A DNA stretch of 64,000 bases, taken from contig CAMKJU010000008.1 of assembly GCA_946413265.1 (NCBI GenBank), positions 1,379 to 65,378 on the forward strand, in the 5' to 3' direction. This document shows, one piece after another, positions 37,709 through 38,025 of this stretch. This DNA is from an uncultured Lentisphaerota bacterium (lineage in GTDB: Bacteria > Verrucomicrobiota > Kiritimatiellia > RFP12 > UBA1067). A program made the position numbers and the translations under genes. Every line of letters starts with the position of its first letter. Within the stretch, counting starts at the first letter, position 1. A model generated the notes under the pieces. That model was given only the letters and a program-made list of their open reading frames with translations. It searched no databases and was not told the DNA's origin.

Positions 37709-37767
37709 CGGGGGTATGGCGCGGGGAGAATCGGTTTGGTATACTACTCGGCGAAAGGAATACTGAG
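37709..37767 (+). promoter_or_regulatory. Repeat-borne promoter/RBS module (TGGTATACT -10, GAAAGGAA SD) driving the Cys-rich peptide gene
   Basis: The identical module occurs at 43727..43786. Confidence 0.5.
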
Positions 37768-38025
37768 ATGGCGACAAAATGCAGACATTGCGGTTCGACG
37801 AGTTACGGGCACGGATGCGCGTATGGCTCAAACCGGATTCACGAGCATCGTGATGACGAGAAGCACTGTGAATGGTGTGGTTCTTCAAGTTACGGACATG
37901 GGTGCGCGTATGGCCCGGATCGGGTTCACCGGCATGGTCCGGGTGGCAACAAGTGTATCTGGTGCGGCTCGACCTCAAACGGCTCGGGCTGCCCATACTC
38001 CCCTACGCACCGCCATGAAAAGTGA
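37768..38025 (+). CDS. Small Cys-rich repeat peptide (85 aa) with three C-x2-C-G-S-(T/S)-S-(Y/N)-G-(H/S)-G-C repeats
   Basis: MATKCRHCGSTSYGHGCAYG…HCEWCGSSSYGHGCAYG…KCIWCGSTSNGSGCPYS. GC3-biased. Own promoter and RBS. Confidence 0.5.
   Translation: MATKCRHCGSTSYGHGCAYGSNRIHEHRDDEKHCEWCGSSSYGHGCAYGPDRVHRHGPGGNKCIWCGSTSNGSGCPYSPTHRHEK

What the first reader, a model, noticed from the sequence alone, without database searches (positions are those of the whole stretch)
37709..38025. Small Cys-rich triple-repeat peptide whose promoter, RBS and first 20 codons are part of a dispersed repeat
The 85-aa product has three C-x2-C-G-S-(T/S)-S-(Y/N)-G-(H/S)-G-C repeats (9 Cys) and basic His-rich spacers. 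The upstream 60 bp (TGGTATACT, GAAAGGAA SD) plus the first ~60 nt of the ORF recur identically at 43727..43846, where the reading frame continues into a different 28-aa, 7-Cys peptide (…GCAYGCNLLPCCV). A mobile promoter-plus-leader cassette fused to different Cys-rich C-termini suggests either a metal-binding or zinc-ribbon mini-protein family, or a diversifying secreted or modified peptide (RiPP-like precursor).
Basis: seen in the sequence. Interest (0 to 1): 0.6.

Follow-up and report, generated by a model that had tools for sequence, protein, structure and literature searches.

The report
Triple-repeat cysteine-histidine mini-protein gene
This is a real, very strongly conserved 85-residue protein with three cysteine/histidine repeats of the metal-binding type, from a widespread family that has no name, and the "second copy" 6 kb away is only its promoter and first 20 codons, left by a rearrangement in front of another gene.

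Summary
ORF 37768-38025 (+) encodes 85 aa with three C-x2-C-G-S-x3-G-x-G-C-x7-H repeats. Its promoter, SD and first 20 codons recur at 43729-43846, with 5 mismatches in 118 nt rather than none. The second ORF has 28 aa and 6 Cys, not 7.

The 85-aa gene belongs to a large, unnamed family: 375 cluster representatives across many phyla, with no Pfam, NCBIfam or PDB relative. dN/dS is 0.01-0.05. The only invariant residues are Cys3-Gly-His in each repeat. AlphaFold2 gives a confident compact model (pLDDT 88). Relatives occur bare (as here), behind Sec- or Tat-like signal peptides, or membrane-anchored. No neighbouring gene is conserved.

Best reading: a small protein with three Cys3His metal sites, probably zinc. 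It is not a RiPP precursor.

The 28-aa ORF is a remnant. Three relatives carry the full gene, then a 158-aa ORF, then the 893-aa gene. The window has a ~660-nt deletion joining codon 20 to the 893-aa gene's upstream region, so the "Cys-rich tail" is former intergenic sequence.

The promoter module is reused before other genes in relatives, inside a variable island built from modular intergenic repeats. The "mobile promoter" idea is therefore partly right. The "diversifying peptide" idea is not.

The parts
37538..37636 (+). Intergenic module A (TTGACAyAGTAG repeats, then GAGAGGTGATGTCAtgGGACTTGTGAA). This is one copy of a dispersed repeat; others are at 34969-35067 and 38045-38143.
   Evidence: the repeat finder family D5. 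blastn of the modules shows 23 copies in the window and its closest relatives, all on the + strand.
37599..37648 (+). Intergenic module B (GGCTCGCCGAGGACGGCTCGCC...). Other copies start at 35287, 36377 and 42169.
   Evidence: the repeat finder family D6.
37633..37709 (+). Intergenic module C (three GTTGCCA(A/G)T repeats). Other copies are at 36441-36535, 42204-42298 and 43641-43735.
   Evidence: the repeat finder family D2. The DNA search finds 4 matches against 0 expected. 16 copies in the window and its relatives, all +.
37710..37760 (+). Promoter/5'UTR module P, with an extended -10 TGGTATACT at 37737-37745 and the Shine-Dalgarno AAAGGAA at 37754-37760, 8 nt before the ATG.
   Evidence: The -10 motif is enriched 19 versus 1.7. 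TGnTATAAT/TATACT about 22 nt upstream of the ATG, plus GAAAGGAA, is conserved in most Kiritimatiellae relatives.
37768..38025 (+). Gene for the 85-aa triple-repeat Cys3His protein (stop codon included).
   Evidence: Homologues. dN/dS 0.01-0.05. AlphaFold2 pLDDT 88.2 and 87.6.
37780..37848 (+). Repeat 1 (C5-x2-C8 ... G14 ... C17 ... H25-E-H27).
   Evidence: Invariant columns C5, C8, G14, C17, H25 in 63 diverse sequences.
37867..37935 (+). Repeat 2 (C34-x2-C37 ... G43 ... C46 ... H54-R-H56).
   Evidence: Invariant columns C34, C37, G43, C46, H54.
37954..38016 (+). Repeat 3 (C63-x2-C66 ... G72 ... C75 ... H83).
   Evidence: Invariant columns C63, C66, C75, H83; G72 is at least 90% conserved.
38045..38143 (+). 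Module A copy directly downstream of the gene. It replaces the 158-aa ORF that follows the gene in relatives L004, L012 and L013. It is followed by TGGTATAAT (38152-38160), the presumed promoter of the 701-aa gene.
43641..43735 (+). Module C copy upstream of the remnant.
43729..43779 (+). Second copy of promoter/5'UTR module P (-10 at 43756-43764, SD at 43773-43779).
   Evidence: There is 1 mismatch in the 58 nt before the ATG.
43787..43873 (+). 28-aa remnant ORF. Codons 1-20 (43787-43846) are homologous to the gene. The deletion junction lies at 43846/43847. Codons 21-28 (CNLLPCCV) come from sequence that lies upstream of the 893-aa gene in relatives.
43907..46588 (+). 893-aa gene with no Pfam family. 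It lies 33 nt after the remnant ORF's stop and is presumably transcribed from the retained promoter. That step is inferred, not shown.

Best explanation
(1) 37768-38025 is a genuine, expressed-type gene for an 85-residue member of a widespread, so far unnamed family of small metalloprotein-like proteins. The protein consists of nothing but three tandem units. Each unit has a CxxCG 'knuckle', a third Cys 8-9 residues later and a His 7 or more residues after that. This gives three Cys3His ligand sets. I infer that each binds one metal ion, most likely Zn2+, and that together they hold a compact pseudo-threefold fold. Family members occur bare in the cytoplasm (as here), behind Sec- or Tat-type signal peptides, or tethered to membranes. 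I therefore infer a self-contained metal-binding or metal-handling module, and not a DNA-binding finger or a peptide precursor. Its cellular role is unknown.

(2) The gene has a strong extended -10 promoter (TGGTATACT) and an SD. These form the last unit (P) of a modular set of intergenic repeats (A-B-C-P). The repeats separate same-strand genes in a variable, defence-gene-rich island of a rumen Kiritimatiellae genome.

(3) The copy at 43729-43873 is a remnant. The ancestral arrangement, kept in three relatives, is promoter, 85-aa gene, 158-aa ORF, 893-aa gene. It lost about 660 nt between codon 20 and a point 60 nt upstream of the 893-aa gene, at a GGCY microhomology. This left the promoter, the SD and a 28-codon read-through ORF in front of the 893-aa gene. 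The promoter is what is retained; the short ORF is a by-product.
For: Real gene under selection:
- 52 close homologues.
- 375 representatives of 50%-identity clusters at E<=1e-3, 233 of them at E<=1e-10.
- 124 genomic hits in Kiritimatiellae, Lentisphaerae, Verrucomicrobia, Planctomycetota, Acidobacteria, Proteobacteria, Synergistaceae, Fibrobacter and others.
- pN/pS gives dN/dS of 0.01-0.05 at pS 0.3-0.7.
- Every homologue starts 1-5 residues before the first Cys and ends 2 residues after the last His.

Ligand set: across 63 diverse sequences the only invariant columns are C, C, G, C, H in each of the three repeats. In repeat 3 the Gly is conserved in at least 90% of sequences but is not invariant. 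The second His of HxH is not invariant.

Fold: AlphaFold2 gives pLDDT 88.2 with pTM 0.73, and pLDDT 87.6 with pTM 0.71, from two alignments.

Symmetry: residues flanking the third Cys are 62-75% identical between repeats of one protein, but only 25-30% identical between the same repeat of different proteins. There is hardly any excess codon identity (0.51 versus 0.45).

Compartments: about 27 of 131 representatives have a classical n/h/c signal peptide directly before the domain. Two have RR (Tat-like) motifs. Others have the domain before or after transmembrane segments.

No partner: no neighbour family is shared by more than 7 of 81 loci. The contexts of the 15 family members whose contigs were looked up are heterogeneous.

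Promoter: TGNTAWAMT occurs 19 times versus 1.7 expected, and the -10 and SD are conserved in relatives.

Remnant:
- L004, L012 and L013 have the full gene, then a 158-aa ORF, then the 893-aa gene.
- The window, L006, L007 and L099 share the junction GCGTACGGCT|GTAACCTTTTGCC.
- The remnants in L006 and L101 carry C8Y and Y13C.
- The upstream part is better conserved than the coding part, 1/58 versus 4/60 mismatches.

Module reuse.
Against: - Signal peptides were judged by a hydropathy heuristic and by eye, not by a dedicated predictor.
- In Sec-exported members the Cys could form disulfides instead of binding metal.
- Very high conservation of non-ligand residues (W65, Y42, E26, R55, K62) would also fit a specific macromolecular partner.
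- No expression data were available.
- The remnant ORF keeps an intact SD and ATG and is found in at least 4 assemblies, so a role as a translated leader is not excluded.
- Both remnant types lose homology at the same codon 20. A single random deletion does not explain this.
Confidence: 0.7

Rival explanations
1. RiPP-like or diversifying secreted peptide precursor. On this reading, a constant leader (the first 20 codons) is fused to variable Cys-rich cores that are modified by a maturase.
For: Small size and high Cys content. The two remnant types have different Cys-containing tails, CNLLPCCV and AACGPCDDWCRGVRERKL. Some family members have Sec signal peptides, as some RiPP classes do.
Against: - There is no radical-SAM, MNIO, peptidase or ABC gene near the gene in the window or on the contigs of the 15 family members looked up, and no conserved neighbour in 81 loci.
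- The 'leader' is itself repeat 1 of a three-repeat domain that is conserved end to end.
- The tails are deletion junctions made of former non-coding sequence.
- The remnants mutate invariant Cys.
- A confident globular model was obtained.
Confidence: 0.03
2. Structural zinc-finger adaptor. The three knuckles serve only to fold a surface that binds a specific conserved macromolecule (protein, RNA or DNA), for example as a regulator linked to the defence or mobile island. It would not be a metal-handling protein.
For: - dN/dS of 0.01-0.05 and near-invariance of many non-ligand residues within Kiritimatiellae.
- Basic pI of 8.4.
- Frequent location in islands with defence, toxin-antitoxin or transposon genes: AbiEii, NERD, GmrSD, SRA, WYL, PDDEXK, PIN, Tn3.
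- Membrane-tethered forms resemble anti-sigma-type architectures.
Against: - About a fifth of representatives appear to be exported, to a compartment with no nucleic acid.
- There is no conserved partner gene.
- Outside the Cys3-Gly-His positions, conservation collapses across phyla, which fits a metal-dictated fold more than a conserved interface.
- No PADLOC hit.
Confidence: 0.2
3. The 28-aa ORF is functional in its own right. It would be a translated upstream leader (uORF) that couples or regulates translation or transcription of the 893-aa gene, and the promoter plus 20-codon unit would be a defined portable cassette that spreads by a specific mechanism.
For: - SD and ATG are intact in all remnant copies.
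- The remnant is present in the window, L006, L007, L099 and P0052.
- In L101 the remnant's stop overlaps the ATG of the downstream SLFN_AlbA_2 gene (GTGATGA), which is typical of translational coupling.
- Both remnant types end homology at the same codon 20.
Against: - Non-synonymous changes occur at otherwise invariant residues (C8Y, Y13C, G20C, V28A).
- The tails differ completely between the two types.
- The 893-aa gene has its own SD 33 nt after the remnant's stop.
- TGCGCGTATGGC, the last 12 nt of the shared part, is an internal direct repeat of the gene. A shared breakpoint could therefore come from recombination within the gene.
- No recombinase was found in the window.
Confidence: 0.15
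4. The modular intergenic repeats mark an integron-like or MITE-like mobile system, and the small gene is one of its cassettes.
For: A unidirectional array of unrelated genes is separated by repeated modules, and the order of the genes differs between close relatives.
Against: - No integrase or transposase family was found in any large ORF of the window.
- The modules sit on the promoter side and carry promoters, whereas integron cassettes are typically promoterless (own knowledge).
- The intergenic region folds no better than shuffles, z = 0.47.
- No Rfam match.
- The GTTGCCA repeats do not fit the attC core GTTRRRY (own knowledge).
- No copy of the module C core pattern was found in viral contigs.
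Confidence: 0.07

Closest known systems
Small zinc-finger 'micro-proteins' with C(P)XCG knuckles, such as the Haloferax volcanii one-domain zinc-finger proteins (PMC11241148, PMC10716476, PMC6562870; seen as titles and abstracts only)
   Same: Very small stand-alone proteins built almost entirely from CxxCG knuckles, with no other domain and mostly unknown function. Metal binding is predicted from the motif.
   Different: Those proteins use two or four CxxC motifs per zinc, with four Cys ligands. This family has one CxxCG plus a lone Cys plus a His per unit, repeated exactly three times, and also occurs with signal peptides. There is no sequence relationship: no hit against Pfam or PDB profiles.
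YmcF-like family (Pfam PF23641; E. coli YmcF, and YnfU from own knowledge)
   Same: It is the only named small-protein family that gave a weak signal. hhalign gave 71% probability over 35 columns, aligning the CxxC of repeat 2 and KCIWCGST of repeat 3 with the two CxxC motifs of YmcF. Seven of 17 members gave sub-threshold Pfam hits.
   Different: The score of 10.2 bits is far below the 27-bit cut-off. YmcF has a single CxxC...CxxC ribbon and lacks the third Cys, the His and the triple repeat.
DnaJ cysteine-rich domain and B. subtilis anti-TRAP (CxxCxGxG repeats) - own knowledge, not tested beyond hmmscan
   Same: Tandem Gly-rich CxxC(G) repeats that fold around zinc ions into a compact, pseudo-symmetric small domain.
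   Different: In DnaJ, two distant CxxC motifs share one zinc, there are four repeats, and there is no His ligand. No Pfam hit to that domain appeared even at E<=10.
Bacterial metallothionein SmtA/BmtA (Zn4Cys9His2) - own knowledge
   Same: A protein of well under 100 residues with 9 Cys plus His ligands, and a plausible metal-buffering role.
   Different: SmtA is not repetitive and forms one cluster. There is no sequence similarity (no hit). This family is far more strongly conserved outside the ligands within a lineage.
Promoter duplication or 'promoter capture' by gene remnants in variable genomic islands (a general phenomenon, own knowledge)
   Same: A strong promoter, with the 5' stub of its original gene, ends up driving an unrelated downstream gene after a deletion or recombination.
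   Different: Here the promoter belongs to an ordered set of reusable intergenic modules (A-B-C-P) shared between several neighbouring genes and between related genomes. Two different fusions share the same breakpoint.

Membership tests
RiPP precursor (radical-SAM/SPASM- or MNIO-modified Cys-rich peptides) | A maturase gene (rSAM, MNIO/DUF692, YcaO, etc.), usually with a peptidase or exporter, encoded next to the precursor | tested here: not met
   Pfam scans of all large ORFs in the window. The 15 family members whose contigs were looked up show precomputed Pfam families on their neighbours. No neighbour family is shared by more than 7 of 81 loci.
RiPP precursor (radical-SAM/SPASM- or MNIO-modified Cys-rich peptides) | Leader/core architecture, with a conserved leader and a separate core | tested here: not met
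   The protein is three homologous repeats from residue 5 to residue 83 and is conserved throughout. The shared '20 codons' are repeat 1 itself.
YmcF-like (PF23641) | Score at or above the Pfam gathering threshold (27 bits) | tested here: not met
   10.2 bits, E = 0.92. The best of 17 members gave E = 0.087.
YmcF-like (PF23641) | A single CxxC...CxxC zinc-ribbon core | tested here: not met
   The YmcF sequence was read from NC_000913.3. hhalign aligns only 35 columns, which span two different repeats.
Zinc ribbon / double zinc ribbon (PF12773 DZR, PF09723, PF13240) | Score at or above the gathering threshold | tested here: not met
   The best DZR hit was E = 0.0035 among 17 members. For the window protein the score was 10.6 bits against a 27.3-bit cut-off.
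Cys3His zinc-binding protein (generic kind) | Invariant ligand set of three Cys and one His per unit, with fixed spacing | tested here: met
   The invariant columns in 63 diverse sequences are C5, C8, C17, H25; C34, C37, C46, H54; and C63, C66, C75, H83.
Cys3His zinc-binding protein (generic kind) | Stoichiometric metal actually bound, with tetrahedral geometry of the four ligands | not testable with these tools
The AlphaFold2 models are confident but contain no metal.
Integron gene cassette / attC | Tyrosine recombinase (IntI) adjacent to the array | tested here: not met
   No integrase family was found in the window ORFs. Only 64 kb could be examined.
Integron gene cassette / attC | An imperfect-palindrome recombination site downstream of each promoterless cassette | tested here: not met
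   The intergenic region 37543-37767 folds no better than shuffles, z = 0.47. The modules carry extended -10 promoters.
Sigma-70 extended -10 promoter | TGnTATAAT-like element at a suitable distance upstream of the start codon, used genome-wide | tested here: met
   TGGTATACT at 37737-37745 and 43756-43764. The motif occurs 19 times versus 1.7 expected in the window and is conserved about 22 nt upstream of the ATG in relatives. The transcription start itself was not tested.
Known anti-phage defence system component (PADLOC) | Match to a PADLOC-DB model | tested here: not met
   No hit for the 85-aa protein, the 893-aa protein or the 158-aa ORF.

The most novel reading that the evidence does not exclude
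The family would be a previously unrecognised class of pseudo-threefold, three-metal-site mini-metalloprotein that bacteria deploy in both cytoplasm and periplasm, for example as a metal buffer or chaperone, or as a redox-sensing or metal-sensing switch. In rumen Kiritimatiellae its promoter plus first 20 codons would form a defined portable expression cassette. That cassette would be repeatedly placed, at one fixed breakpoint, in front of different island genes (the 893-aa kinase-like gene, an SLFN_AlbA_2 gene, a protease-inhibitor gene), acting as a promoter-delivery element that rewires expression in a defence island.
Probability: 0.15. Interest if true: 0.7.

Novelty: new variant of a known kind. 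Interest (0 to 1): 0.42.

Why it matters
The finding picks out a widespread protein family that is among the most strongly constrained small proteins one could find: dN/dS about 0.02, and 55-65% identity between phyla over 85 residues. Yet it has no Pfam or NCBIfam model, no solved structure and no name other than 'hypothetical protein'.

Its anatomy gives a directly testable hypothesis. There are exactly three Cys3His units. The repeats show concerted, symmetry-keeping evolution. Cytoplasmic, exported and membrane-anchored versions all exist. The hypothesis is a three-site metal-binding module, and the protein is an easy target for structural and metal-binding work.

The second lesson concerns annotation and genome evolution. 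In this lineage, intergenic regions of a variable island are assembled from reusable promoter modules, and rearrangements leave short translatable gene stubs. Read naively, these stubs look like new Cys-rich peptides. Gene callers also routinely over-extend the real gene into the repeats, giving predictions of 104-145 aa instead of 85.

Tried and rejected
- Pfam and NCBIfam scans of the protein and of 17 members found only sub-threshold Cys-pattern hits: C1_2, DZR, YmcF-like, Fer4.
- PDB sequence-profile searches with two alignments found nothing below E = 0.6.
- tblastn against plasmid and phage collections gave no match.
- PADLOC gave no match.
- Cluster names are only 'hypothetical protein'.
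- Literature searches for motif strings and for YmcF/YnfU found nothing relevant.
- Rfam on 34000-44500 gave only chance-level hits.
- An RNA fold of the upstream region was no better than shuffles.
- The consensus -35/-10 scan missed the promoter because it lacks a -35. The extended -10 search was the informative one.
- The longer upstream ORFs chosen by gene callers (142 aa from GTG 37597; MGLVKT... in P0001, P0002 and P0052) were rejected. The ATG is ATT in the window, relatives read module C in different frames (P0001 versus P0003), and all distant homologues start at M-x(1-4)-C.
- Recent DNA-level gene conversion as the cause of repeat similarity was rejected: codon identity is 0.51 against 0.45 expected.
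- The YmcF relationship was rejected after reading the E. coli sequence.
- The second 82-aa ORFs near homologues (L084, L102) are unrelated.
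Full report
**Observation**

The ORF at 37768-38025 (+) encodes 85 residues: MATKCRHCGSTSYGHGCAYGSNRIHEHRDDEKHCEWCGSSSYGHGCAYGPDRVHRHGPGGNKCIWCGSTSNGSGCPYSPTHRHEK. It contains 9 Cys, 10 His and 14 Gly.

The stretch 37710-37827 recurs at 43729-43846 with 5 mismatches in 118 nt. One mismatch lies in the 58 nt before the ATG and four lie in the first 60 coding nt. The repeat finder gives 94% over 125 nt. A 28-nt core of the cassette occurs exactly twice in the window, against none in 100 shuffles. The second reading frame gives MATKCRHCSSTSYGHGCAYGCNLLPCCV, which has 28 aa and six Cys, not seven.

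**The gene is real and belongs to a large unnamed family**

- A word-seeded search found 52 close relatives with 2-repeat (56 aa) and 3-repeat (about 85 aa) forms.
- An exhaustive profile search of 1.84 billion cluster representatives found 375 representatives at E<=1e-3 and 233 at E<=1e-10.
- A scan of one genome per species found 124 encoded relatives.
- The closest are rumen assemblies: RUG10619 at 100% amino-acid identity, and Kiritimatiellae MAGs from goat, sheep, yak and deer at 91-96%. The window therefore comes from a rumen Kiritimatiellae-type bacterium.
- More distant members occur in Lentisphaerae, Verrucomicrobia, Planctomycetota, Bryobacterales, Alpha- and Gammaproteobacteria, Synergistaceae, Fibrobacter, Syntrophales, Oscillospiraceae, Melainabacteria and Tectomicrobia.
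- Comparing the window gene with 59 same-length relatives gives synonymous differences of 0.3-0.7 per site but non-synonymous differences of only 0.005-0.07, so dN/dS is 0.01-0.05.
- Every homologue begins 1-5 residues before the first Cys and stops two residues after the last His. The 85-aa reading is therefore right. The 104-145-aa versions made by gene callers, which run back into the upstream repeats, are wrong.
- No curated family matches: Pfam and NCBIfam give only sub-threshold cysteine-pattern hits, and PDB sequence profiles give nothing below E = 0.6.
- Source names are only 'hypothetical protein'.
- The plasmid, phage and PADLOC collections give no hit.
- Literature searches gave nothing relevant.

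**What the protein looks like**

In an alignment of 63 diverse members, the only invariant columns are Cys, Cys, Gly, Cys, His in each repeat: C5 C8 G14 C17 H25; C34 C37 G43 C46 H54; and C63 C66 C75 H83, with G72 at least 90% conserved. The second His of the HxH motifs is not invariant. That is the signature of three Cys3His metal sites built on CxxCG knuckles. This is an inference from established zinc-knuckle and rubredoxin-knuckle chemistry; metal binding itself was not testable.

One feature is striking. The variable residues flanking the third Cys are the same in all three repeats of one protein (AY/AY/PY here; IH x3, PH x3, YH x3 and SY x3 elsewhere). Within a protein their identity is 0.62-0.75. 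Between the same repeat of different proteins it is 0.25-0.30. Codon identity at shared residues is barely above expectation, 0.51 versus 0.45. I read this as selection for a symmetric arrangement and not as recent gene conversion.

**Where the domain works**

The window protein has no signal peptide. Many representatives, however, carry a classical positively charged, hydrophobic, AxA-type signal peptide immediately before the first Cys, for example MKKIFACLAAVLFLFAASAQAK-C... About 27 of 131 do so by my hydropathy heuristic and reading. Two carry twin-arginine motifs (P0020, KRRNFLTKALAFG; P0134). Others have the domain after a transmembrane segment at the C-terminus, or before several transmembrane segments at the N-terminus.

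A module used in both cytoplasm and periplasm, with no nucleic acid in the latter, argues for a self-contained metal-binding or metal-handling function over DNA or RNA binding. Predominant Sec export argues for a simple ion such as Zn or Cu over an Fe-S cluster. Both steps are inference.

**No partner, so not a RiPP**

ORFs within 3.5 kb of the gene were clustered in 81 loci (the window and 80 loci from other assemblies). No neighbour family is shared by more than 7 loci, and those 7 are all close relatives. The contigs of the 15 family members looked up, with precomputed Pfam families on the neighbouring genes, are heterogeneous. The neighbours fall into two groups:

- Defence, toxin-antitoxin and mobile-element genes: AbiEii, NERD, GmrSD, SRA, Pkinase, WYL/WCX, PDDEXK_4, PIN/DUF433, Rad52, and Tn3 transposase with resolvase.
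- Housekeeping and other genes: ribosomal protein S1, tyrosyl- and glutamyl-tRNA synthetases, SAM synthetase, SbcCD, LysR.

None shows a radical-SAM enzyme, MNIO, peptidase or exporter. The protein is conserved end to end with no leader/core split. The RiPP reading is not supported.

**The local setting**

Positions of about 19.7-49.1 kb form a variable island of mostly plus-strand genes. It lies between housekeeping genes (NUDIX and nitroreductase upstream; LepA, PFK and exosortase downstream). It contains the following:

- a DnaD_N/HTH_36 protein
- AAA_14/DUF4143
- AbiEii
- two HNH_2 proteins
- RadC
- GmrSD
- DUF2971
- an ArsR-like HTH
- Kinase-PolyVal
- the small gene
- a LamG-like secreted protein
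- NYN
- the 893-aa protein
- LemA

The intergenic regions between 34.9 and 43.9 kb are mosaics of repeated modules in the fixed order A, B, C, P:

- A: TTGACAyAGTAG repeats plus GAGAGGTGATGTCATGGGACTTGTGAA
- B: GGCTCGCCGAGGACGGCTCGCC
- C: three GTTGCCAAT repeats
- P: the promoter/5'UTR unit GGGGGTATGGCGCGGGGAGAATCGGTTTGGTATACTACTCGGCGAAAGGAA

Every A, C and P copy is on the plus strand; module B also has two minus-strand matches, at 17244 and 17633, outside the island. The modules occur only in the window and its 11 closest relatives among the loci held at that point. Gene order between modules differs from genome to genome. The modules are not structured RNAs: the fold z-score is 0.47 and there is no Rfam hit. 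No recombinase was found in the window.

The -10 element of P fits an extended -10 motif, TGNTAWAMT, that occurs 19 times in the window against 1.7 expected, mostly just upstream of ORF starts. A TGnTATAAT/TATACT element about 22 nt before the ATG, plus GAAAGGAA, is conserved in most Kiritimatiellae relatives.

**Origin of the second copy**

In three relatives (L004, L012, L013) the full 85-aa gene is followed by a 158-aa ORF, whose ATG overlaps the small gene's last codons, and then by the homologue of the 893-aa gene.

In the window, L006, L007 and L099, the sequence reads ...GCGTACGGCT|GTAACCTTTTGCC... The left part is codons 1-20 of the gene (...GCGTATGGCT|CAAACC in the intact copy). The right part is the sequence that lies about 60 nt upstream of the 893-aa gene in L004 and L012 (...TTTGGCC|GTAACCTTTTGCC), and the two are joined at a GGCY microhomology.

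The tail CNLLPCCV is therefore former non-coding sequence read in frame, and its cysteines are incidental. Remnant copies tolerate changes at invariant positions: C8Y, Y13C and G20C in L006, with C8Y and Y13C also in L101. The promoter part is better conserved than the coding part, 1/58 versus 4/60. The remnant ends 33 nt before the 893-aa gene, which has its own SD. I infer, but have not shown, that the retained promoter now drives that gene.

**Reuse of the cassette**

A metagenome scan with the promoter pattern found six more copies:

- two with the full gene
- one with the same remnant plus the 893-aa gene
- two in which only the promoter/5'UTR precedes a secreted Inhibitor_I42-type gene, as also seen in L001 and L006
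- one (L101) in which the promoter plus 20 codons is joined to a different tail (AACGPCDDWCRGVRERKL), whose stop overlaps the ATG of an SLFN_AlbA_2/HATPase_c_4 gene

In both remnant types, homology to the gene ends at the same codon 20. I cannot explain this coincidence. The last 12 shared bases, TGCGCGTATGGC, are an internal direct repeat of the gene (repeats 1 and 2), which may make this a recombination-prone boundary.

The variable 'C-termini', however, are junction debris and not a diversifying peptide family.

**Comparison with known kinds**

In kind, the protein is a small knuckle-type metal-binding protein. It is comparable to the archaeal C(P)XCG micro-proteins, to the DnaJ/anti-TRAP Cys-rich repeats and, by ligand count, to bacterial metallothionein. 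It is a member of none of these.

The only named family with any signal is YmcF-like. It fails the Pfam threshold (10.2 versus 27 bits) and has a different core.

I rate the finding as a new variant of a known kind. The family is real, widespread, uncharacterised and well defined by exactly three Cys3His units with symmetry-preserving evolution. Interest is moderate. The finding offers a clean, testable target and a cautionary example for small-ORF annotation. Nothing here contradicts established biology, and the function remains inferred.

Noticed in passing
window 19748-19857 and 23132-23241: There are two arrays of 4-5 tandem 22-bp iteron-like repeats (CCCC(A/G)TGTAGGGAG + 8 nt). The first lies directly upstream of a TGTTATACT promoter and the ORF at 19915, which is followed by an HTH_36/DnaD_N (replication-initiator-like) gene at 20608. 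This suggests that the island may be, or may contain, an integrated replicative element.
   Followed up: partly
window 22956-23146, 24069-24263, 25884-26037: A second set of long intergenic repeats (154 nt in 3 copies, 49 nt in 2 copies) lies between genes in the 5' half of the island (AAA_14, AbiEii, HNH_2). These are analogous to the A-B-C-P modules but unrelated in sequence.
   Followed up: no
window 35196-35262, 35491-35557, 36286-36352: There are three copies of a module containing the near-perfect palindrome ACGTCACATATTCGAATA(T/A)GTGACGT. They flank the only minus-strand gene of the region, an ArsR-like HTH protein (35548-36222). This may be its operator.
   Followed up: no
window-wide, e.g. 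19882, 26107, 36571, 38152, 40319, 42614, 46653: The extended -10 motif TGNTAWAMT is about 11-fold enriched (19 versus 1.7 expected) and sits just upstream of ORF starts, usually without a recognisable -35. At 38152-38160 it lies only 8 nt before the first ATG of the 701-aa ORF, so that gene is either leaderless or starts at a downstream ATG.
   Followed up: partly
window 43907-46588; L004 6780-8312: The 893-aa protein has no Pfam family. It contains GQADRHHANYF and GIDNDAGY, which recall the catalytic and activation loops of PI3/PI4-kinase-type enzymes (own recollection, untested). It is conserved downstream of the small gene or its remnant in at least 7 related assemblies.
   Followed up: no
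L004 6248-6724 (also L012, L013); window 38013-38054: In relatives, a 158-aa acidic ORF starts inside the last codons of the small gene (..CATGAAAAGTGA..), which suggests translational coupling. It has no Pfam or PADLOC hit. In the window only 13 codons of it survive (MKSDVYGGAIGPR*) before module A replaces it.
   Followed up: partly
family-wide (P0030-P0044, L003): Natural 56-aa two-repeat versions exist on several contigs. They are either repeat 1 joined to repeat 3 (HEHxDDEKHC linker) or have the HRHGPGGNKC linker. They are apparently precise deletions of one repeat unit by recombination between repeats.
   Followed up: no
window 1615-4014: This 799-aa ORF has a hydrazine-synthase-alpha middle domain (HZS_alpha, E = 2e-33) and a CXXCH motif. 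That is an unusual annotation for a rumen Kiritimatiellae genome.
   Followed up: no
L088 / L089 (relative P0026): One distant family member lies between a DDE_Tnp_1_assoc gene and a Tn3-family transposase with resolvase. The small gene may therefore travel as transposon cargo in some lineages.
   Followed up: no
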